UHGV virus genome: UHGV-1978634
Length of the DNA stretch: 39,633 bases
Strand: one strand, 5' to 3'
Origin: a virus
Below, piece after piece: positions 14,715 to 35,824 of this stretch. Under the pieces are notes generated by a model that did not search any database, had not been told where the DNA came from, and saw nothing but the letters and a program-made list of their open reading frames with translations. Both the position numbers and the translations under genes were made by a program. The first letter of the stretch is position 1, and every line of letters starts with the position of its first letter.

Positions 14715-16136
14715 CTACTTGAATGTAACGATATAAATCCCAGAATCTTTTTGCAGTTTGTAATTCCTGCCATCTTCAATCAATTCTACATTCTTACCAT
14801 CTGATTTAGCAATTTCTGCATTCATTCCTGAGTACCAGAAATAAGCATTCATAAACCATTTAGAAGTCAGGTTAAATTTCACAATATTTTTTAGGATTGG
14901 ATAATCAAGATAGATCTGCTTAAGATAATGAGGAAGGTTAGGCTCATTTCTTATATCAATCTTAACTAACCCAGAACGTTTATCCATGCTGTCAATAGAT
15001 GCAATAACTGATTCTAACTTCCTGATTTTATATTCAGACTCGTATTTGAAAGCATTCACATAAATAGATGCCATTGCTACCGAAATGAATAAATAAAATG
15101 CAGTTATCAAATATACAGCATATCTTACCTTAGAATCTTTTATCTTTAGCAAAGGTGTAAGTGCGACCATTAGAAATGCAGGGAAAGACATCAGCACTCT
15201 GGATGATATTATAGCATTGCTAAACATTGCGTAGGGAATAAACAACAATAAGAATGAAATTGGCAATGAGACGGCAAATAACAATGAATCAAGGTATCTT
15301 CCACTTGTGAAAGATTTAACTGCTTGCCACAGACACACTGCGTAAGAAATAACAACGAGCACTGAAACAACTGCTAGTTGAGTCGTCGATAACGAAGTTA
15401 ACAATGAAAATATATAGTTAATATTAGATAAGAACTCGCTAATTCCATCACGATTTAAGTGAACTATTGTCGTGTGGTTGTCAACGTATACATCTGTAGA
15501 AAGCAATGTAGTTGTAGTCTGAACAATGGCAAAGGTGACAACGAATATCACAACGCTGCTTAACACGTATCTCATATTTTCCTTTTGCGTTTTACTATTA
15601 AGCAAGTTGTTTAAAGACTGAAGAATGACAAGGCAGACAAATACAGCAAACGAAGTTTGATAGAAAAAGCTTGCTGCAGTGAGAAGCAGCAGTCTGAAAA
15701 TAAAATTGAATTTATGTTCATACCTAACGGCCGCCAGCATAGCCAAAGAAAACGATGCCGACATTCCAATAACATCAATGTGGTATGACATGTTTTCAAT
15801 ATAAAATGGAGAACAAATTAAAACACATATCGTGATTGTTTTTGCAATCCATTGCTTGCCAAACACAGATTCAGCAAAGTAATTGCAGGCTACTATCATG
15901 ATAACAAATGAAACAACAAGGTTCAGTTGATAAACATCTGGCGAGATCAACTTTCCTGATGAATTCAAAAGGATGTAATACAACTCGGTAAGAAATCGAC
16001 CTTGAGAAGCTAGCCCGATATATCCGTATGAATATCTTGCTACATCATCCACAAAAGGAGGCATATAAAAGAATGGAAGGAAGAAGCAAGCGACTATAAG
16101 TATCGCTGGCATTTCATATCGCGTTAATTTAAACAT
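14715..16136 (-). CDS. Serotype-specific O-antigen glycosyltransferase (GtrC-type polytopic membrane protein)
   Basis: 473-aa highly hydrophobic multi-TM protein, AT-rich, immediately downstream of gtrB in the same operon. Confidence 0.75.
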
Positions 16137-17052
16137 CTTTAGACCCCTTAATTATATATCTTGGTCTTGATTTTACTTCGACATATATTCTGCCAATGTA
16201 TTCCCCAAGCACACCAATACCTATCAACTGAATTCCCCCCAGGAAAAGAATTGAAACCAATAGCGATGGATAACCACGGACAGCATTACCGAACACCAAT
16301 GTGTCGAAAATCATCCACACCCCGTAAAGGAACGAGAGTCCCGCAACAAGTAGACCGATGTAAGTCCACACGCGCAAGGGGAAGGTCGAGAAACTTGTAA
16401 TCCCCTCAAGCGCCAGGTTCCAGAGCTTCCAGCCATTGAACTTTGTGCTTCCGGCAACGCGTTCAGCACGGATGTATTCAACAACATCCGTCTTACCGCC
16501 AACCCAAGATAAAACGCCTTTCATAAACAGGTTACGCTCTGGCAGTAGTTTGATATTTTCTACCATCTCTCGTGACATAAGACGGAAGTCACCAACGTTC
16601 TCTTCAATCTGCGGATTACTAATTTTGTTGTGAAGTTTATAAAACCACTCAGCAGTTTTACGCTTTAACCTACCATCAGTTGATCTGTCAGAGCGCTTTG
16701 CCAGCACCATATCAGCACCTGCCTGCCACTTTTCAATAAGATGAGGAATGACCTCAATCGGGTCTTGCAGGTCAACATCAATTGGAATCACGGCATCGCC
16801 AGTTGCATGGTCTAACCCTGCAAACAATGCTGGTTCTTTACCAAAGTTGCGTGTAAATGACAGCGGAACAACTAGCGGATCAGAAACAGCCAGAGCATTA
16901 ATAATTGACTCCGTAGCGTCTTTGCTTCCGTCATTTATGAAAACAATTTCCACTTCATATGGCTTCAACTCTTCGAATTCACGTACCGTTTTATAAAAAA
17001 TTGGTATCGCTTCTTCTTCATTGAAGACAGGAACTACAAGAGATATCTTCAT
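16129..17052 (-). CDS. gtrB: Bactoprenol glucosyltransferase GtrB (GT2 family)
   Basis: 307 aa; N-terminus [17 protein letters not shown].., DVDLQDP motif, two C-terminal TM helices. Confidence 0.9.
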
Positions 17053-17411
17053 TTCGCATCCCTAAAGACAATGAACTTTGAATAGACGAAACCGCACACC
17101 AGGCTGATGGCGGAAAAGGTGACGAGAGTGATAATTGGAGGAAGTGAACATCTATCAGCAGCCCATCCAACAGTTGCACTCAGTGTTCCCATGAACCCGA
17201 CAAATAACATGTAGCGCATCGTTGTAGTCGATGCTTTGAATGTGAATTTTGCATTCGCGAAGAAGCTAAAACTCACAGCCACAACGAAACCTGCGAAGTT
17301 TGCCAGAGCCTGATTGGTATGCGCGGCATAGATACATACACCAAAAACCACCCAGTGTATAAGTGTGTTCAGCACACCAATCGAGGTGTACTTTGCAAAT
17401 AGCTTTAACAT
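17049..17411 (-). CDS. gtrA: GtrA flippase-like small membrane protein
   Basis: 120-aa four-TM protein directly upstream of and overlapping gtrB. Confidence 0.85.
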
Positions 17412-21730: not shown

Positions 21731-22272
21731 GGTTCCACCTTCTCTATTTGCTTAAGACCGTCTCTCACTGCATTAAGTACGCGTTCCAGATACTGGTATT
21801 TCGGGTTTGGTACCGTTGGCCAGTCGGCATACCACGGATCATCACCAAAGAGATTCAGCAGTTTGTTACCGACGCCGAAACAACAGCAGCTTTCTTTTAC
21901 GTCATCGGCGTTTTCCGCCTCGTCCCACATTTCGCGAGCCTGTACCGCGTCGATTTCTTTCTCTCTTCGTAACTTTATGATTTCTGACTTCACGAAAAGC
22001 AGATTTGCATCGTTGTCATCGTCGACCGTGCTTAGCAGTTGAGGGTCGAAATTGTCGATTAGATAGTCGTTGCTAACTCGCTTAATGAACGTCTGCACAT
22101 CATCACCGCCCATAGCAAACCAAGCCGCAGTCCACGCCTTTCCGTAGCAGGTGATGGTGATTCTTCCCTTACCAGGTTCGTAGTTTTCAATCATCACTCG
22201 AACCGGATCTAGTCGCTCTGCACCGGTTATAACGAATGACAACACATCAATCTTTTCAACCGTTACACTCAC
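21727..22272 (-). CDS. Hypothetical acidic protein (181 aa)
   Basis: ORF with 4-nt overlap to the downstream gene. Confidence 0.55.
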   Translation of the reverse strand: MSVTVEKIDVLSFVITGAERLDPVRVMIENYEPGKGRITITCYGKAWTAAWFAMGGDDVQTFIKRVSNDYLIDNFDPQLLSTVDDDNDANLLFVKSEIIKLRREKEIDAVQAREMWDEAENADDVKESCCCFGVGNKLLNLFGDDPWYADWPTVPNPKYQYLERVLNAVRDGLKQIEKVEP

Positions 22273-22703
22273 TGGTTGCCTCCTTTGCGAAGCTGGTCGG
22301 CGAACTCGTTAAGTGATATGTAGCAATCTCCAAATGTTAACGAACCGCTCGACTGCATATGCTCCATAGCCATCTCCACGCCCTGCGCCCGTACTTCAGC
22401 CAAGAAAGCGTCGGTGGCTGTGGTTTCGATATCGTTAATTTCAGGAAGAATCTCTTCCCATGTAGCGATATCGCCATTCAAATGCCATCCGGCAATTCCA
22501 CTGGAGTTATCCGCAACACTCCGAACGGCTTCAATAGTTTCATGCATTGCCGCATTCTCCGCCGCCAGCGCCGCGCACTTGGCCTCCGCTTCAGCAAATT
22601 TACGGACAAGATATTCAGCGTTTGTTTCGTTAACCTTTAAATCTCGTGGGATGCATTTACCTTTCAGAAATCCATCCATCTCAATTAGTGTCATTTGTTT
22701 CAT
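22269..22703 (-). CDS. Hypothetical protein (144 aa from ATG 22703)
   Basis: ORF 22269..22787; GGAG RBS precedes the ATG at 22703, which also removes the overlap with the HNH gene. Confidence 0.5.
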   Translation of the reverse strand: MKQMTLIEMDGFLKGKCIPRDLKVNETNAEYLVRKFAEAEAKCAALAAENAAMHETIEAVRSVADNSSGIAGWHLNGDIATWEEILPEINDIETTATDAFLAEVRAQGVEMAMEHMQSSGSLTFGDCYISLNEFADQLRKGGNQ

Positions 22704-22746
22704 TTTTTTCCACTCCGCCACATCGCATTCAGATATTTGTTTTGAT

Positions 22747-23325
22747 TTACTGATGGAGCTTGCGACGGTTTGATTTAGGATTTCCATTACGATTCCCCCT
22801 GTTTCCGTAATTTAATTTTCTGCAATCGATTGGTGTGGGGCGCAGGTAACCATATATTTCTACTTGATATTTTGCTAGAGCATACGCATATTTTGCACCA
22901 TCACATGTTGCATATGAGCCAAGGTGATGTAGTTTTCCATTAACACCTATGTATGCTCTCCATCCATAAGCACACCTTTCTGTGCCTATTTCAGTTCCTT
23001 TATTTCTACTTGTGTTGCTATTGTTTTCCCTACTGGAGACATCTCGTAGGTTAATAAACCTGTTGTCAGCTTTATTTCTGTTGATGTGATCAATTACATT
23101 TACTGGCCATTTCCCGGTAACATATAACCAAGCTAGTCTGTGCGCTAAATACCATTTTTTATTAATATATATCCTTATGTATCCCATCGAGTGCGTACAG
23201 CCAGTTGGTTTGAAACCAATTATATCCCCATTATTGGATTTAATTATCTTCTTGAAAACCCCAGTTTCTTTATCGTAGTGAATGTTGCTAATGAGGTATT
23301 CATATGAAATGTCATTTTTTGACAT
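22747..23325 (-). CDS. HNH homing endonuclease (HNH_3 / AP2-like)
   Basis: 192 aa; ..[54 protein letters not shown].. ; strongly AT-rich ORF. Confidence 0.8.
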
Positions 23326-23488
23326 AATCCTTCTTACTCCTCAAAATCATTTCAAGATATCTGTTGTCGTTAACAGAACCGAAACTATTTCTCTTAAGCA
23401 ATTCCTCTCTCGATGGCATTGGCTTTACGCGTTGGCGAATAATCATTTCTGCCGGAAGAATGCCGGGATTGTATGCAAGTCCTCTCAT
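23312..23488 (-). CDS. Hypothetical small protein (58 aa)
   Basis: GGAGAG RBS; ATGA overlap with the upstream stop; 3-prime end overlaps the HNH start. Confidence 0.3.
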
Positions 23489-23775
23489 GATTTACTCTCC
23501 ACGAACTGGTCAACAGCCATGCTAAGTGATACACCTAAAGTCTCGATATGCTGCTGAATATCCTGTAGCGTCTGCGCCTGAGATAACAGGATTTCACGGT
23601 TGCATAACTCTTTGACCAGATGCTCAAACTTGCTGTAATAACCGATACGACTTAGTGTTTCTTTCCCTGCATTCTCGCCTTCTTTTATAATTCCTCTTTC
23701 GCTAAGAATCAGATCGTGTTTGGTTCCGGTAATAACGTATTTTCCGAGGTCGATGTTTAGCTTCATTGTTTTCAT
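23485..23775 (-). CDS. Hypothetical protein (96 aa)
   Basis: ORF 23485..23925; internal ATG at 23775 with GAGGA RBS preferred because the longer form overlaps the upstream gene. Confidence 0.5.
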
Positions 23776-23785
23776 TGTTAATTCC

Positions 23786-24079
23786 TCAGTCATTACTGAT
23801 AGCGCCATAGCGTGAGCGGTAATTACGCAGGCGCGGGTCAATTTCAGGGAAGTGGGTATATGTGGCTTTGCGGAATGGTCGGATTGATGTCTGGTAAATT
23901 CGCTCGCGTTCTTCTTTCTCTGCAAGCCATATACAGTGGCGAAATTCCTTTTCCTCTTTCGTTTCCTGCGGTAGCGACATTATCAGGTCGTAGTTTTTTC
24001 TGAATTTATCCAGCACCTCCGATACGGAATTGCCGGAGCAGCGGCGCGGGTCATCCGCACCATACAGAGGCGCTGGCAT
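23786..24079 (-). CDS. Hypothetical protein (97 aa)
   Basis: ORF track; operon context. Confidence 0.5.
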   Translation of the reverse strand: MPAPLYGADDPRRCSGNSVSEVLDKFRKNYDLIMSLPQETKEEKEFRHCIWLAEKEERERIYQTSIRPFRKATYTHFPEIDPRLRNYRSRYGAISND

Positions 24080-24102
24080 AATGGAATCCTTATGTTGCTA
24101 AT

Positions 24103-24486
24103 TTAGAAGGGAATTGAATCGTCGTATTCAGGATGATTTTGATGATTGCTACTTTGTTGCTGTTGGCTGTTTCCTGAAGTTGCAAATCCAATCTTTGCAT
24201 TCAGTAATTCAAGAGTGATTGATTGACCATTTTGCCCCTGATAAACATCAACCCTGATGTTTTCTCCGGTAATTTCCACAATGCCACCTTCAACAAGAAC
24301 GCTACGGTAGTAATCCGCTTGCGCTCCCGGCTTGGCAAATACAACGGCGCTGTAGTTTGTCCATTCTTTCTTTTTTGTCTGGCGATCGTAATACTGAACG
24401 CCAGCACGGATGTTGAATCCGATATTTTCCCCGGCCTGAAACTCTCTTGCGGGCTTGTTTAGTCTTACAGTAATCGAATGTGCCAT
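24103..24486 (-). CDS. Phage single-strand DNA-binding protein-like (OB fold, acidic DDSIPF tail)
   Basis: ORF 24103..24576, ATG at 24486; C-terminal ..EYDDSIPF resembles the SSB tail DDDIPF; adjacent to erf. Confidence 0.6.
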   Translation of the reverse strand: MAHSITVRLNKPAREFQAGENIGFNIRAGVQYYDRQTKKKEWTNYSAVVFAKPGAQADYYRSVLVEGGIVEITGENIRVDVYQGQNGQSITLELLNAKIGFATSGNSQQQQSSNHQNHPEYDDSIPF

Positions 24487-25091
24487 TAAGCAGCCGCTCC
24501 TTCTAATTCGTCTCGTCTGATGTTGTAAACGTCCTGCGCTTTGTGCTGCTCCGGTGTGCCTTCGAGCATCTTCCACGCTTTGGCGAACGCCTGTTTAAGC
24601 TCTTCCACGTTGTTTTTCTGCATTGCTGCGTCAGTGAATGCTTTTAGAACCTGTTCAGGTGTAGGTGATGGTTTTGATTGCTTTGCTGCTGCGTTCTGCT
24701 GATGTTTATGCTCGTCTGTATCTGCATCTTTCGCATCATCAATGCCGAATAAACCATTGAGGCAATACTTGCGTGCATAAGAGCTTGTAGCTCCCGTAAC
24801 TTGTGCAGAATCCATTCCTTTCTTGCTTTCTTCCTCTCGTGCAAGAGCGGTTGCCGTATGACTGTTTTCGCCATCGGTAATAGTTGCCGTGGCTTTCACG
24901 TAATACCGATCACCAATCAACACAACTTCATCGCTGATTGATAAAAACAGGCCATTCAGTAACGGCTTAACGCCTTCAAGAATGTCTTCGCAGCTTCTGT
25001 ATTTATATTTGCCGAATGAGTTGTACTGATTCTTTGGCGCGTTCAGATTCTCCTGAATAGCTGCCAGTCTTGCGTAAAATTCTTTGCTCAT
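24486..25091 (-). CDS. erf: Erf single-strand annealing recombinase
   Basis: MSKEFYARLAAIQENLNAPKNQYNSFGKYKYRSCEDILEGVKPLLNGLFLSISDEVVLIGDRYYVKATATITDGENSH.. matches the P22 Erf family as I recall it. Confidence 0.85.
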   Translation of the reverse strand: MSKEFYARLAAIQENLNAPKNQYNSFGKYKYRSCEDILEGVKPLLNGLFLSISDEVVLIGDRYYVKATATITDGENSHTATALAREEESKKGMDSAQVTGATSSYARKYCLNGLFGIDDAKDADTDEHKHQQNAAAKQSKPSPTPEQVLKAFTDAAMQKNNVEELKQAFAKAWKMLEGTPEQHKAQDVYNIRRDELEGAAA

Positions 25092-25180
25092 ATGATTGTT
25101 CTCAGAATGGACATGGCCCAAGGAAATAACGCTGATTTAATACTTCAGTCTTTGCCGCATTTAAAAATACGCGAACACCT

Positions 25181-25351
25181 TCACGATCTCCCTTCTGGCG
25201 ATACATTAACGCCTGCTGCGTGTACATGCGCCTCTGTAACTTGCTCTCCTTCACTGTGGTTGCAAGTGACATGAATATCTCCTTCGTTACCGATTAATTC
25301 TTTCATCTGACGAATGAATTCTTCGTCTGACCAGTTATCTGTAAAACTCAT
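25181..25351 (-). CDS. Hypothetical small protein (56 aa)
   Basis: ATG at 25351 overlaps the stop of the upstream reading frame (ATGA). Confidence 0.35.
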   Translation of the reverse strand: MSFTDNWSDEEFIRQMKELIGNEGDIHVTCNHSEGEQVTEAHVHAAGVNVSPEGRS

Positions 25352-26517: not shown

Positions 26518-26817
26518 TCAAATAAGTGGTTTGCTTCCTAATTTCATTTTCTGGCGACCAACACAAGTCACCCCCATTTCACTGCGTGGCTTGCGGTAGT
26601 AAATACGGTTCTGTTTACGCTCGACTTCTTCTGCCTTTTTGCAGCGAAGGCTTCCGAGTGATGTTGCTTTGTCTGCTCTGACGCAACCAGAGAGCTTTAG
26701 CGCAATTTTTCGCGCCAGTCGCTGCTCTTGCATTGCCTGTTCACGTTGAGCCTGTCTGCGTGCTCTGCGGCGATTTCTGGCGTTATCGTCAGCCAGATAT
26801 GTAATGACTACTGTCAT
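26518..26817 (-). CDS. N: Antiterminator N-like protein
   Basis: ORF 26518..26910; ATG at 26817 with GGAGG RBS; arginine-rich motif NARNRRRARRQAQREQ near the N-terminus. Confidence 0.7.
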   Translation of the reverse strand: MTVVITYLADDNARNRRRARRQAQREQAMQEQRLARKIALKLSGCVRADKATSLGSLRCKKAEEVERKQNRIYYRKPRSEMGVTCVGRQKMKLGSKPLI

Positions 26818-33872: not shown

Positions 33873-34479
33873 TAAACCAGCGCGAAGACGATGTAAAAAC
33901 GATGAATGTCGGGAATGGTTTCACCCTGCATTCGCTAATCAGTGGTGGTGCTCTCCAGAGTGTGGAACAAAGATAGCACTCGAGCGACGAAGCAAAGAAC
34001 GCGAAAAAGCGGAAAAAGCAGCAGAGAAGAAACGACGACGAGAGGAGCAGAAACAGAAAGATAAACTTAAGATTCGAAAACTCGCCTTAAAGCCCCGCAG
34101 TTACTGGATTAAACAAGCCCAACAAGCCGTAAACGCCTTCATCAGAGAAAGAGACCGCGACTTACCATGTATCTCGTGCGGAACGCTCACGTCTGCTCAG
34201 TGGGATGCCGGACATTACCGGACAACTGCTGCGGCACCTCAACTCCGATTTGATGAACGCAATATTCACAAGCAATGCGTGGTGTGCAACCAGCACAAAA
34301 GCGGAAATCTCGTTCCGTATCGCGTCGAACTGATTAATCGCATCGGGCAGGAAGCAGTAGACGAAATCGAATTAAACCATAACCGCCATCGCTGGACTGT
34401 CGAAGAGTGCAGGGCCATCAAGGCGGAGTATCAGCAGAAACTCAAAGACCTGCGAAACAGCAGAAGTGAGGCCGCATGA
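33865..34479 (+). CDS. ninG: NinG / Rap recombination protein
   Basis: 204 aa; Cys-rich N-terminus and basic central region typical of NinG. Confidence 0.8.
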
Positions 34480-34522: not shown

Positions 34523-35011
34523 ATGGGCATAAGAGAACTAAACCTCACCAAAGAACAGCACGAGTGGCTGAATGGCTGGCTTGAACTGTGGGGCGCATGG
34601 GTTTATTCAGGTCGTCTGGAAAAGCGCATGAGCAGCGTAATAGCGAAGTTTATGGAGAGCGTAGAGCCGGGAAGAGTTATGACAAGGCCAATGTGTAATG
34701 ATGATGATGGAATGTTGATTTCTCAGGTCGTCGATTCCGTCATGTACATTGACAAGAAAGCCTTTGGCATCCTCCTCAGCTACTACGCCCATGGATCTTC
34801 CAAGCACGCCATTGCATCTTACTATCATCGCGTCGCAAGACCTCGCAAGATGTTATGCCGGGGCGGCGGGCGCATTCAAAAACCATCGCTCGCAACCTGT
34901 CGTCGGGAAGTTGACGAAATCCTCAATGCCTCGTTGTTTATGATTTACCCGGTTCTGGATAGTGCGTTTAAAAACCGGAAACGTGTAGAGAAAATTAAAC
35001 ATGTAGCATAG
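34523..35011 (+). CDS. Q: Late-gene antiterminator Q (P22 gene 23 family)
   Basis: ORF 34466..35011; ATG at 34523 with GGGAGAAGG RBS; ..WLELWGAWV..RPMCNDDDGMLIS.. pattern; immediately upstream of the late leader. Confidence 0.65.
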   Translation: MGIRELNLTKEQHEWLNGWLELWGAWVYSGRLEKRMSSVIAKFMESVEPGRVMTRPMCNDDDGMLISQVVDSVMYIDKKAFGILLSYYAHGSSKHAIASYYHRVARPRKMLCRGGGRIQKPSLATCRREVDEILNASLFMIYPVLDSAFKNRKRVEKIKHVA

Positions 35012-35093
35012 AACGTGTTGACATCATTGAGCAAATGAGCAACACTATTCGCATAAGCTGCCGTTAGTGACTCTTAAGTTTCAACGGTGGCTT

Positions 35094-35168
35094 TTTTTAT
35101 TTGGGTCAGTCGTATAAAGGTCATTACGGAAGGCTGTTAACCTTCTTATCGTGGTTCGAGTCCACGCT
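35094..35168 (+). tRNA. tRNA-Asn (anticodon GTT)
   Basis: Manual cloverleaf: acceptor gggtcag/ctgtccc (one mismatch), anticodon stem gaagg/ccttc, loop ctGTTaa, T-arm cgtgg-ttcgagt-ccacg, 3-prime gcca. Confidence 0.7.
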
Positions 35169-35173
35169 GTCCC

Positions 35174-35249
35174 GCCAAATATGCTGGTTTAGCTCCAATG
35201 GTAGAGCAGTCGCCTTGTAAGCGAATGGGTAGCGGTTCAAGTCCGTTAA
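35174..35249 (+). tRNA. tRNA-Thr (anticodon TGT)
   Basis: Manual cloverleaf: acceptor gctggtt/aaccagc, D-arm gctc-caatggta-gagc, anticodon loop ctTGTaa, T-arm agcgg-ttcaagt-ccgtt, 3-prime acca. Confidence 0.8.
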
Positions 35250-35500
35250 CCAGCACCATAACTGAGCCGTAGCCACTGGCTATCCTGAATTCATCAGTGA
35301 TAGTTACGCTGCGGCCTTCTACACATGACCTTCGTGAAAGCGGGTGGCAAGAGGTTGCGCTAACAACCTCCTGCCGTTTTGCCCGTGCATATCGGTCACG
35401 AACAAATCTGATTGCTAAACACAGTAGCCTGGATTTGTTCTATCAGTAATCGACCTTATTCCTAATTAAATAGAGCAAATCCCCTTATTGGGGGTAAGAC

Positions 35501-35824
35501 ATGAAGATGCCAGAAAAACATGACCTGTTAGCCGCCATTCTCGCGGCAAAGGAACAAGGCATCGGGGCAATCCTTGCGTTTGCAATGGCGTACCTTCGCG
35601 GCAGATATAATGGCGGTGCGTTTACAAAAACAGTAATCGACGCAACGATGTGCGCCATTATCGCCTGGTTCATTCGTGACCTTCTCGACTTCGCCGGACT
35701 AAGTAGCAATCTCGCTTATATAACGAGCGTGTTCATCGGCTACATCGGTACTGACTCGATTGGTTCGCTTATCAAACGCTTCGCTGCTAAAAAAGCCGGA
35801 GTAGAAGATGGTGGAAATCAATAA
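35501..35824 (+). CDS. S: Holin S (lambda class I, dual-start MKM)
   Basis: 107-aa product matches lambda S as I recall it almost residue for residue. Confidence 0.9.

What the first reader, a model, noticed from the sequence alone, without database searches (positions are those of the whole stretch)
35094..35249. Two phage-encoded tRNA genes (Asn-GTT and Thr-TGT) in the late leader between Q and the holin
Both fold into cloverleaves with correct anticodon loops and CCA ends. They are inserted into a late leader whose downstream part looks lambda-like, a known cargo hotspot between Q and lysis genes.
Basis: seen in the sequence. Interest (0 to 1): 0.45.

Follow-up and report, generated by a model that had tools for sequence, protein, structure and literature searches.

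The report
Known tRNA pair in late leader
Two genuine tRNA genes (Asn-GUU and Thr-UGU) sit directly behind the late-gene terminator of this Sf6/P22-like phage; the cassette is already annotated in many related phages, and it probably keeps late protein synthesis going, possibly even when host defences cut the cell's own tRNAs.

Summary
Both encode CCA. Across 17 and 20 sequence variants from public viral contigs, the cloverleaf pairs change in a compensatory way, so these are working genes and not relics.

The cassette starts 4 nt after the T-run of the late terminator tR', behind a phage-21-type Q and PR'. It ends 1-3 nt before a leader that is about 97% lambda and runs to the holin.

The same pair is annotated in Sf6 and SfI, and it is present unannotated in the phage 21 and HK446 records. 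It also occurs in 369 of 5,426 complete E. coli genomes. It is therefore already known.

Codon supplementation explains Thr (ACA is 2.1x enriched) but Asn only weakly. Recent work gives a second reading. A 2026 preprint reports that the HK446 Thr(UGU) tRNA, identical to this one, rescues phages from the P2 OLD tRNase. E. coli Thr(UGU) and Asn(GUU) are two of the three main targets of the PARIS nuclease AriB. Both phage tRNAs lack the U39 that AriB cleavage needs in tRNA-Lys. The window also encodes the OLD trigger gp33. The counter-defence role is an inference and was not tested here.

The parts
34523..35011 (+). Late antiterminator Q, phage-21 type (162 aa)
   Evidence: BLASTP gives 157/162 identical residues to phage 21 Q from AJ237660. 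The ORF is listed; the longer GTG-start ORF begins at 34466.
35016..35052 (+). Late promoter PR', placed by homology. The -35 TTGACA is at 35018-35023. Tandem TGAGCAA repeats at 35028-35034 and 35036-35042 are a candidate Q-binding element.
   Evidence: Aligned to the annotated 'pQ promoter' of phage 21 (AJ237660) and the 'P R'' of Sf6. The generic sigma-70 scan did not report it. The Q-binding assignment is an inference by analogy with the phage L paper.
35053..35101 (+). Short late leader RNA (qut region) ending in the intrinsic terminator tR'. The hairpin is at 35055-35093 and the T-run at 35092-35098.
   Evidence: Corresponds to the 50-nt 'aRNA' of phage 21 and to the 'qut' and 't R'' features of Sf6. 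The fold has MFE -17.3 kcal/mol and z -4.3, and 0 of 200 shuffles fold as well.
35103..35177 (+). tRNA-Asn, anticodon GUU, discriminator G73, encoded CCA. It has U4.U69 and U13.U22 mismatches, and positions 36-41 read UAACCU.
   Evidence: ARAGORN. Rfam 55.3 bits. Six pairs carry compensatory double changes across 17 variants, matched by 0 of 500 shuffles. Anticodon-arm read-out.
35183..35258 (+). tRNA-Thr, anticodon UGU, with G1-C72, C2-G71, A73 and encoded CCA. It has a G27.A43 mismatch, and positions 36-41 read UAAGCG.
   Evidence: ARAGORN. Rfam 61.5 bits. Four pairs carry double changes across 20 variants, matched by 12 of 500 shuffles. Identical to the HK446 copy.
35259..35500 (+). Lambda-type remainder of the late leader up to the holin start. 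It is highly structured and includes a hairpin followed by GUUUUG at about 35341-35381.
   Evidence: About 8 mismatches in 249 columns against lambda. MFE -91.7 kcal/mol, z -6.6.
35501..35824 (+). Holin/antiholin of lambda S type with the dual start Met1-Lys2-Met3. It is the first late protein gene after the tRNAs.
   Evidence: ORF. The Sf6 homologue is annotated as S107/S105-like.
25184..25351 (-). Context only: homologue of HK446/HK75 gp33, which a preprint reports as a trigger of the P2 OLD tRNase.
   Evidence: tblastn gives 94.6% identity over 56 of 56 aa. The trigger role comes from bioRxiv 10.64898/2026.07.10.737580.
22272..22703 (-). Context only: distant homologue of HK446 gp27 (Oad2, an anti-OLD protein).
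   Evidence: tblastn gives 43.6% identity, E 5e-26. The preprint reports that a 54%-identical HK75 homologue does not inhibit OLD.

Best explanation
What it is (near certain): a 156-bp cassette of two functional elongator tRNA genes, Asn(GUU) and Thr(UGU). It is the same cassette carried by Sf6, SfI, phage 21, HK446, BTP1 and many E. coli and Salmonella prophages.

How it is expressed (inferred from anatomy): the cassette begins 4 nt after the T-run of tR' and has no room for a promoter of its own. It is therefore transcribed only by polymerases that read through tR'. These are mainly Q-modified polymerase from PR', and possibly N-modified polymerase coming from PR. The tRNAs then form the 5' part of the late polycistronic RNA. 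RNase P and 3'-end trimming would release them. CCA is already encoded. The result is that phage Asn and Thr tRNAs appear together with the late mRNAs.

What it is for (about 50%): the tRNAs keep late translation running when the host's own Thr(UGU) and Asn(GUU) are limiting. This would matter in particular when those host tRNAs have been cut in the anticodon stem by OLD-family TOPRIM nucleases, namely P2 OLD and the PARIS effector AriB, which are carried by co-resident P2-like prophages and P4-like satellites. The phage versions have different anticodon-stem sequences and would replace the destroyed host tRNAs. Topping up the scarce ACA decoder is a second, compatible benefit.
For: Identity and function:
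- two predictors; compensatory changes; the slid-partner controls collapse to 22-53% paired.
- The identity elements can be read directly from the sequence: Asn has G34, U35, U36 and G73; Thr has G1-C72, C2-G71, G35 and U36 (the element lists are from my own knowledge of the E. coli AsnRS and ThrRS literature).

Placement:
- tR' is a strong hairpin plus T7 that ends 4 nt before tRNA-Asn.
- In 107 of 119 IMG/VR loci, tRNA-Asn follows a terminator T-run within 6 nt, of either the 21 type or the lambda type.
- HK446 shows the same cassette behind the lambda tR'.
- The BTP1 transcriptome paper places the start of the lytic operon at these two tRNA genes and sets them aside when listing prophage genes with TPM>100 (PMC7067206).

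Counter-defence:
- bioRxiv 10.64898/2026.07.10.737580 reports that OLD depletes E. coli Thr(UGU), Gly(UCC), fMet, Val(UAC) and Pro(UGG). It also reports that plasmid-expressed HK446 Thr(UGU) restores plating of the OLD-sensitive phages HK97, HK542 and Bas34 to near wild type, whereas E. coli Thr(UGU) has no effect. The HK446 tRNA is identical to the window's.
- PMC12409363 shows that the main targets of AriB are E. coli Lys(UUU), Thr(UGU) and Asn(GUU), all cut between positions 40 and 41. In tRNA-Lys, U39->A abolishes cleavage and A41->C reduces it.
- The host tRNAs read UAAUCA (Thr) and UAAUCC (Asn) at positions 36-41. The window reads UAAGCG and UAACCU. The T5 variants, which neutralise PARIS, read UAAGCA and UAAGUU.
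- Alternative cassettes in the same slot carry Gly(UCC), another OLD target.
- The window encodes the OLD trigger gp33.
- The Thr anticodon stem is nearly invariant across variants while the acceptor stem covaries.

Codon side:
- ACA is 17.7 per 1000 in late genes against 8.5 per 1000 in a K-12 sample (p 1.6e-7). Asn is 55.8 against 42.4 per 1000 in late genes (p 5e-5).
Against: - No experiment here or in the literature I read shows expression, processing or charging of these tRNAs from their native position.
- The OLD result is a preprint and used plasmid overexpression. The single tRNA did not rescue lambda or relieve OLD toxicity in recB cells. The authors attribute HK446's own OLD resistance to the protein Oad2.
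- Direct cleavage resistance was shown for the Bas32 tRNA, not the HK446 tRNA.
- The cassette lacks Lys(UUU), the prime PARIS target, so on the T5 precedent it should not suffice against PARIS alone.
- Any tRNA not recently copied from E. coli would be likely to differ at positions 39 and 41 by chance. The match between cassette content and nuclease targets is a post-hoc observation. My rough hypergeometric estimate, for 3 of 5 slot tRNA species falling among 8 of about 40 targets, gives p about 0.05.
- The same tRNAs decode A/U-ending codons that AT-richer phages overuse, so codon supplementation predicts much of the same pattern.
- Phe(GAA) and Arg(UCU) in sister cassettes are not known OLD or PARIS targets.
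Confidence: 0.5

Rival explanations
1. Pure codon supplementation. The cassette exists only to raise the supply of decoders for codons that the late genes use more than the host does. Resistance to tRNA-cleaving defences would be an incidental by-product of sequence divergence.
For: - ACA makes up 29-33% of Thr codons in the window against 15.5% in a 50-kb K-12 sample. That is 2.1x per 1000 codons and ranks 5th of 61 codons by ratio.
- AAT is 5th by absolute excess, and late genes are Asn-rich, especially the tailspike.
- The SfI paper found ACA at 17.3 against 7.1.
- The phage L paper notes that 24 of 25 Asn codons in the capsid gene are AAC.
- E. coli has a single Thr(UGU) gene, thrU (plus my own knowledge).
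Against: - Codons that are more enriched than ACA (AGG 4.9x, AGA 3.8x, TCA 2.8x, CGA 2.2x) get no phage tRNA in this cassette.
- Asn(GUU) is a multi-copy, abundant host tRNA (four genes in K-12, from my own knowledge). The SfI authors found no codon bias that explains it.
- In the OLD preprint, overexpressing the E. coli Thr(UGU) did nothing while the phage version rescued, so the phage tRNA has a property beyond dosage.
Confidence: 0.35
2. RNA-processing or 'punctuation' role. The two cloverleaves serve mainly as RNase P and RNase E entry sites that cut the tR' leader off the late mRNA or set its 5' end and stability. Decoding would be secondary.
For: - The cassette always abuts tR' on one side and a strongly structured leader on the other.
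- The phage L authors state that it is unknown whether the tRNAs are excised from the late mRNA.
Against: - Lambda and P22 express their late genes without any tRNA in this position.
- Anticodons, identity elements and encoded CCA ends are all conserved across variants. A pure processing signal would not require this.
- The identical Thr tRNA works in trans from a plasmid.
Confidence: 0.05
3. Compensation for a host tRNA gene disrupted by prophage integration. The OLD preprint suggests this for the HK446 tRNA.
For: The preprint's discussion offers this idea. Many lambdoid phages do integrate into tRNA genes.
Against: - The cassette is about 16 kb from int and att and lies behind the late terminator, which is the wrong place and timing for a lysogen-expressed replacement.
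- HK446 attP matches thrW (Thr-CGU) and, like other such sites, carries the tRNA 3' part itself.
- The same applies to L/P22.
- Neither Asn(GUU) nor Thr(UGU) is the integration target.
Confidence: 0.03
4. Decaying relics or pseudogenes with no current function.
For: - The Asn gene has two stem mismatches.
- In phage L/ST64T the second gene has a 4-nt deletion in the anticodon arm and ARAGORN rejects it.
- Scattered single variants carry damaging changes.
Against: - Both genes score far above the Rfam threshold.
- Compensatory changes keep 90-95% of cells paired.
- The mismatches themselves are conserved.
- The sequence is 99-100% conserved across podo-, sipho- and myovirus lambdoids.
- There is functional rescue by the identical Thr tRNA.
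Confidence: 0.02

Closest known systems
The tRNA-Asn/tRNA-Thr pair of Shigella phage Sf6 (AF547987), phage 21, SfI, HK446, BTP1 and related prophages
   Same: It is the same cassette. It is 99.4-100% identical over 163 bp and has the same order, the same 5-nt spacer and the same position right after tR' and before the S-type holin. The Sf6 record annotates PR', qut, tR' and both tRNAs. The SfI, epsilon34 and phage L papers discuss the pair.
   Different: Only the surrounding mosaic differs. Here the Q is 97% phage-21 type, whereas HK446 has a lambda-type Q and the 6S region. The window also has one extra base in the promoter spacer relative to the old phage 21 record.
[quoted passage not shown]
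   Same: The anticodons are the same for two of the three. U39 is replaced in both: window Thr UAAGCG against T5 UAAGCA, and window Asn UAACCU against T5 UAAGUU. The identical HK446 Thr tRNA is one of the rescuing tRNAs in the OLD study.
   Different: This is a temperate lambdoid phage, not a virulent one. It has only two tRNAs and no Lys(UUU). Expression is late, behind tR', and not from early or middle tRNA clusters. Resistance to AriB has not been tested. Overall the sequences are only distantly related to the T5 genes.
tRNA genes ileZ-argN-argO between Q and stx in Stx phages such as 933W (from my own knowledge, not checked here)
   Same: They occupy the same genomic slot, downstream of Q/PR'/tR' and upstream of the lysis genes, and are co-transcribed with late genes. 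This is the classic example of cargo in this hotspot.
   Different: The tRNA species are different (rare-codon Ile and Arg decoders), the sequences are unrelated, and they are associated with toxin genes.
Expanded arrays in Klebsiella phage Mulock and Flyfo siphovirus Tbat2_3, and the Asn plus degenerate second tRNA of phage L/ST64T
   Same: The Asn and Thr genes are homologous (about 88-93% identity) and lie in the same slot between the antiterminator and the holin.
   Different: Mulock and Tbat2_3 insert Phe(GAA) between Asn and Thr, and Mulock adds Arg(UCU). Some IMG/VR contigs carry Gly(UCC) in place of Thr or in addition to it. In L/ST64T the Thr homologue has a 4-nt deletion, is annotated Leu(TAA) and is rejected by ARAGORN.

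Membership tests
Bacterial-type elongator tRNA (Rfam RF00005) | Cloverleaf with 7/4/5/5-bp stems, a 7-nt anticodon loop with U33, a T-loop UUCRANU and G18G19, scoring above the curated threshold | tested here: met
   55.3 and 61.5 bits against a gathering score of 29, with full-length model matches. ARAGORN calls both genes. One or two non-canonical pairs per gene are tolerated.
Bacterial-type elongator tRNA (Rfam RF00005) | Base pairs maintained by compensatory substitution among homologues | tested here: met
   Asn has 6 pairs with double changes and 90.2% of cells paired, matched by 0 of 500 shuffles. Thr has 4 pairs with double changes and 94.5% paired, matched by 12 of 500. The slid-partner controls give 22-53% paired.
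tRNA-Asn accepted by E. coli AsnRS | Identity elements G34, U35, U36 and discriminator G73 (my own knowledge of the E. coli identity literature) | tested here: met
   The sequence shows anticodon GUU and G before CCA. Actual charging is not testable with these tools.
tRNA-Thr accepted by E. coli ThrRS | G1-C72, C2-G71, G35 and U36 (my own knowledge) | tested here: met
   The acceptor reads GCUGGUU...AACCAGC-A-CCA and the anticodon is UGU. G1-C72 is kept in 19 of 20 variants and C2-G71 in 20 of 20. Charging is not testable here. Functional rescue by the identical HK446 tRNA implies that it decodes.
Sf6/phage-21-type late-leader tRNA cassette | Asn(GUU) then Thr(UGU), 5-nt spacer, starting within a few nt of the tR' T-run, upstream of the holin, with near-identical sequence | tested here: met
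   99.4% identical to Sf6 and phage 21 and 100% identical to HK446 over 163 bp. The Sf6 annotation has the same layout. 107 of 119 IMG/VR loci share the terminator junction.
Late (Q-dependent) expression as part of the PR' transcript | Transcribed only by readthrough of tR', with no promoter of its own | not testable with these tools
   The anatomy supports it: there is a 4-nt gap after a strong terminator. The BTP1 RNA-seq description is consistent with it. The phage L authors state explicitly that it is unknown.
Viral tRNA variants that evade TOPRIM tRNases (anti-PARIS, anti-OLD) | Same anticodon as a host tRNA targeted by the nuclease | tested here: met
   Thr(UGU) is a target of OLD and a prime target of AriB. 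Asn(GUU) is a secondary but biologically relevant AriB target.
Viral tRNA variants that evade TOPRIM tRNases (anti-PARIS, anti-OLD) | [quoted passage not shown] | tested here: met
   The window Thr has G39 and G41 and the window Asn has C39 and U41, whereas the host has U39 in both (determinants). This is weak on its own, because it could arise by chance divergence.
Viral tRNA variants that evade TOPRIM tRNases (anti-PARIS, anti-OLD) | Resists cleavage and rescues phage growth in defence-carrying cells | not testable with these tools
   Literature only. The identical HK446 Thr(UGU), expressed from a plasmid, rescues HK97, HK542 and Bas34 on OLD+ cells in a preprint. There are no data for the Asn tRNA, for PARIS, or for expression from the native locus.

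The most novel reading that the evidence does not exclude
The Asn(GUU)-Thr(UGU) late-leader cassette of lambdoid and P22-like phages is a dedicated counter-defence module against OLD-family TOPRIM tRNases (P2 OLD and PARIS AriB) carried by rival P2 prophages and P4 satellites. On this reading the two species were selected because they are the nucleases' targets. Their anticodon stems (G39/G41 in Thr and C39 in Asn, and the invariant Thr stem) are held by selection for cleavage resistance. Placement behind tR' delivers them exactly when late proteins must be made. The preprint that tested the HK446 Thr tRNA treated it as a single tRNA, perhaps replacing a disrupted host gene. It did not note the partner Asn tRNA, the late-leader position, or the overlap with PARIS targets.
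Probability: 0.4. Interest if true: 0.55.

Novelty: already known. Interest (0 to 1): 0.3.

Why it matters
As a sequence feature it is routine. The cassette has been annotated since the Sf6 genome record (AF547987) and is called by PGAP in hundreds of E. coli genomes.

Its purpose has stayed unclear. The SfI authors could not explain the Asn tRNA, and the phage L authors did not know how the tRNAs are expressed.

If the cassette is really a replacement set for host tRNAs cut by OLD and PARIS, it would be a compact, widespread example of temperate phages carrying tRNA-based counter-defence in the Q-to-lysis cargo slot. About 7% of complete E. coli genomes carry it. It would also tie conflicts between lambdoid prophages and P2/P4 elements to a specific 156-bp module, and it would be easy to test by deletion and by in vitro cleavage.

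Tried and rejected
- My first recollection was that P22 itself carries this pair. That was wrong: the phage L paper states that P22 has no tRNA genes.
- I guessed that the lambda sRNA PreS lies in the pre-S leader. That was also wrong: PreS is in the early left operon. Only LPR2 and 6S RNA are in the late operon, and the text gives no coordinates for LPR2, so I could not place it on 35259..35500.
- The generic sigma-70 and terminator scan found neither PR' nor tR'. Both were placed by homology with the Sf6 and phage 21 annotations and by folding.
- A first attempt to translate Q used the wrong frame and was corrected.
- I looked for a shared nucleotide signature at positions 27-29, the OLD cut sites, among the rescuing Thr tRNAs (T4 CCUCA, HK446 GUCGC) against the E. 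coli tRNA (ACUGA, no effect) and the T5 tRNA (GUUGC, only partial rescue). No simple rule emerged.
- HepS, the Gifsy-1 anticodon nuclease, also hits Thr(UGU) as a secondary target, but it cuts in the anticodon loop. The loop is identical in the phage and host tRNAs, so no evasion is expected.
- Pseudogene, att-site remnant and host-tRNA-compensation readings were considered and rejected (see rival explanations).
- The large protein-database, structure-prediction and metagenome tools were not used, because the question concerns RNA genes and they were not needed.
Full report
OBSERVATION. ARAGORN finds exactly two tRNA genes in the window: tRNA-Asn(gtt) at 35103..35177 and tRNA-Thr(tgt) at 35183..35258, both on the + strand. 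An independent covariance-model search of the whole window against Rfam returns the same two loci and nothing else. The scores are 55.3 and 61.5 bits against a gathering score of 29, with E-values of 2e-9 and 4e-11. Both genes encode their CCA ends. The Thr gene has a G27.A43 mismatch. Thermodynamic folding alone recovers both cloverleaves, but with unremarkable z-scores of -1.7, as is usual for single tRNAs.

ARE THEY WORKING GENES? I collected 119 loci from IMG/VR that share a 20-nt word from the Asn D arm and ran ARAGORN on them. This gave 21 distinct Asn and 24 distinct Thr sequences. On gap-free alignments of 17 and 20 full-length variants, the cloverleaf keeps 90.2% (Asn) and 94.5% (Thr) of cells paired. 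Six pairs in Asn and four in Thr change on both sides: in Asn 5:68, 6:67, 7:66, 28:42 and 29:41, and in Thr 3:70, 5:68, 6:67 and 49:65. In Asn, no column shuffle in 500 reaches the observed value for percentage of cells paired, pairs or cells changed on both sides, or covariation score. In Thr, none does for percentage paired, cells changed on both sides or covariation score, and 12 of 500 reach the observed number of pairs changed on both sides. Sliding the partner strand drops pairing to 22-53%. The three odd mismatches are themselves conserved, in 15 of 17, 17 of 17 and 20 of 20 variants. Anticodons, discriminator bases (G73 for Asn, A73 for Thr), G1-C72 and C2-G71 in Thr, and the CCA ends are kept. 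These are constrained, tRNA-shaped, correctly 'addressed' genes and not relics. They are not recent copies of host genes: identity to K-12 asnT and thrU is low outside the universally conserved positions.

ANATOMY OF THE LOCUS. The ORF at 34523..35011 is 97% identical to the phage 21 late antiterminator Q. By alignment with the annotated phage 21 and Sf6 records, the layout is as follows:
- The late promoter PR' has its -35 TTGACA at 35018-35023.
- The transcript starts near 35053.
- A strong hairpin (35055-35093, -17.3 kcal/mol, z -4.3) followed by seven T's forms tR'.
- tRNA-Asn starts 4 nt after the T-run, a 5-nt spacer follows, and then comes tRNA-Thr.
- From 1-3 nt after the CCA of Thr, the leader becomes lambda sequence (about 8 mismatches in 249 nt) up to the dual-start S-type holin at 35501.

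Phage HK446 carries the identical 163 bp in an otherwise lambda-type setting: lambda Q, PR', the 6S region and tR'. The alignment shows the cassette replacing about 160 nt of lambda exactly between the tR' T-run and the conserved leader. In 107 of 119 IMG/VR loci, tRNA-Asn likewise follows a terminator T-run within 6 nt. About 90 of these have the phage-21-type tR' and about 15 the lambda type. The cassette is a discrete mobile unit bounded by tR' and the S leader.

WHAT THE WINDOW IS. The left 25 kb matches the virion genes of Sf6, HF4s, N7 and HK620 at 95-97% identity in mosaic fashion. The gene order is that of a P22-like (Lederbergvirus) genome opened in the terminase region.

ALREADY KNOWN. 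The Sf6 GenBank record annotates PR', qut, tR', tRNA-Asn and tRNA-Thr 'similar to phage 21'. The SfI paper reports both genes downstream of Q and cites Sf6, ST64T, PS3 and phage 21. The epsilon34 and phage L papers mention the same slot in P22-like prophages, and the L paper states that P22 itself has none. In the INPHARED phage set, 59 records hold at least 80% of the pair at the sensitive BLAST setting. In RefSeq, 369 of 5,426 complete E. coli genomes carry it, annotated by PGAP as tRNA-Thr and tRNA-Asn.

HOW IT IS LIKELY EXPRESSED (inference). There is no room for a promoter between tR' and tRNA-Asn. Transcription must therefore come from polymerases that pass tR'. These are Q-modified polymerase from PR' and possibly N-modified polymerase arriving from PR; an arginine-rich N-like ORF lies at 26518..26817. 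The tRNAs would then be cut out of the 5' end of the late polycistronic RNA by the host tRNA-processing enzymes, with CCA already in place. The BTP1 transcriptome paper describes the lytic operon as beginning at these two tRNA genes, and it sets them aside when listing prophage genes with TPM>100. The phage L authors state that excision from the late mRNA versus an unidentified promoter is unresolved. I could not test this.

WHAT IT IS FOR: CODON SUPPLY. Using a simple ORF set, ACA is 17.7 per 1000 codons (29% of Thr) in late genes and 14.8 per 1000 in early genes. In a 50-kb K-12 sample it is 8.5 per 1000 (15.5% of Thr), with p 1.6e-7 for late genes. Asn codons are 55.8 per 1000 in late genes against 42.4 per 1000 in K-12 (p 5e-5), and are not enriched in early genes. 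This agrees with the SfI paper. However, ACA ranks only 5th by enrichment. AGG, AGA, TCA and CGA are more enriched, and none of them gets a phage tRNA here. Asn(GUU) is an abundant multi-copy host tRNA, and its presence the SfI authors could not explain.

WHAT IT IS FOR: COUNTER-DEFENCE. Two recent studies bear directly on this pair.

(i) Belukhina et al. [quoted passage not shown] It cuts between positions 40 and 41 next to a shared U36-A-A-U39 motif. In tRNA-Lys, U39->A abolishes cleavage and A41->C reduces it. The T5 versions of exactly these three tRNAs neutralise PARIS. Reading the sequences at positions 36-41 gives UAAUCA for host thrU and UAAUCC for host asnT, UAAGCG for the window Thr and UAACCU for the window Asn, and UAAGCA and UAAGUU for T5. 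Both window tRNAs thus lack U39, as the T5 variants do.

(ii) A July 2026 preprint (10.64898/2026.07.10.737580) reports that P2 OLD is a tRNase that depletes Thr(UGU), Gly(UCC), fMet, Val(UAC) and Pro(UGG), cutting after nucleotides 27-29. Plasmid expression of Thr(UGU) from T4, Bas32, Bas33 and HK446 restores plating of OLD-sensitive phages to near wild type, while the E. coli tRNA does nothing. The HK446 tRNA is base-for-base the window's tRNA-Thr.

Further circumstantial points:
- Sister cassettes in the same slot carry Gly(UCC), another OLD target, in about 10 of 119 loci.
- The Thr anticodon stem, where both nucleases cut, is nearly invariant while the acceptor stem covaries.
- The window's early-left region is the HK446/HK75-type recombination locus. 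It includes a 94.6%-identical copy of gp33, the reported OLD trigger, and only a 43.6%-identical homologue of the anti-OLD protein Oad2. The preprint found that a 54%-identical homologue was ineffective.
- The preprint's own suggestion, that the HK446 tRNA compensates for a host gene disrupted by integration, does not fit. HK446 attP is thrW-like (Thr-CGU), and the cassette is in the late leader, far from att.

CAVEATS.
- The OLD data are unreviewed and rely on overexpression.
- One tRNA did not rescue lambda or recB toxicity, and HK446's own resistance is attributed to Oad2.
- The cassette lacks Lys(UUU), the prime PARIS target.
- Divergence at positions 39 and 41 could be chance.
- The overlap between cassette contents and nuclease targets was noticed after the fact. 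My rough hypergeometric estimate is p about 0.05.
- Phe(GAA) and Arg(UCU) in sister arrays are not known targets.
- Codon supply and nuclease evasion are not exclusive. The nucleases may target exactly the tRNAs that A/U-rich phage genes depend on.

I put about 0.5 on 'late-expressed replacement tRNAs whose main advantage is surviving TOPRIM tRNases, with ACA supply as a bonus'. I put about 0.35 on codon supply alone and small weights on the other readings.

VERDICT. The finding is real and correctly interpreted, but it is a well-known, widely annotated cassette, so novelty is 'already known'. The one part that is not settled in the literature is why this particular pair sits behind tR'. The link to OLD and PARIS assembled here is a testable hypothesis and not a result.

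Noticed in passing
window 3490..4173 and 4239..4760 (+), break near 4151-4155: The major capsid (coat) gene is split into two ORFs in different frames. Relative to Sf6 gene 5 the window lacks one G in a run (GGGGG to GGGG), which shifts the frame. This is either a homopolymer sequencing error or a sign that this is a defective prophage copy.
   Followed up: partly
window 22272..25351 (- strand): The early-left region is the HK446/HK75-type recombination locus. It holds Erf (24489..25091, 99.5%), gp31, Abc2, gp29, gp28, the reported OLD trigger gp33 (25184..25351, 94.6%) and a distant Oad2 homologue (22272..22703, 43.6%).
   Followed up: partly
window 35259..35500: The lambda-type part of the late leader is unusually structured (MFE -91.7 kcal/mol, z -6.6). 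It contains a GC-rich hairpin followed by GUUUUG at about 35341-35381. A recent preprint describes an Hfq-bound ~63-nt lambda sRNA, LPR2, 'in the late operon' near 6S RNA without giving coordinates in the text. Whether it maps here is open.
   Followed up: partly
window 35026..35042: The PR' spacer contains tandem TGAGCAA repeats and has one base more than the 1999 phage 21 record (AAATGAGC against AAGT-AGC). That record's Q protein also differs in a short stretch that looks like compensating frameshifts. The old record may therefore contain errors, and the window may show the true phage-21-type sequence.
   Followed up: no
L004 884..955 (phage L cII-101, MW013503): The second tRNA of phage L/ST64T is a homologue of the Thr gene with a 4-nt deletion and rearranged anticodon arm. 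It is annotated tRNA-Leu(TAA) at only 72 nt, and ARAGORN rejects it. It is likely a damaged or re-purposed copy.
   Followed up: partly
IMG/VR loci L013-L131 (survey): The same slot holds variant arrays: 95 Asn|Thr, 7 Asn|Gly(UCC), and several with Phe(GAA), Arg(UCU) and/or Gly(UCC). One Thr variant is a chimera whose first 26 nt are phage type and whose last 50 nt are identical to E. coli thrU. This suggests recombination between the prophage and host genes, or an assembly artefact.
   Followed up: partly
window 14715..17411 (- strand): Three leftward ORFs of 473, 307 and 120 aa lie between the tailspike and integrase genes, in the position of the O-antigen-modifying gtr (serotype conversion) genes of P22-like phages. 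Their identity was inferred from position and size only and was not searched.
   Followed up: no
L132 2897..2959 (HK446 attP) and L010 1504..1659: The RefSeq record of HK446 does not annotate either late-leader tRNA. The OLD preprint speaks of HK446 encoding 'a single' Thr(UGU). ARAGORN finds the Asn(GUU) partner immediately upstream.
   Followed up: yes
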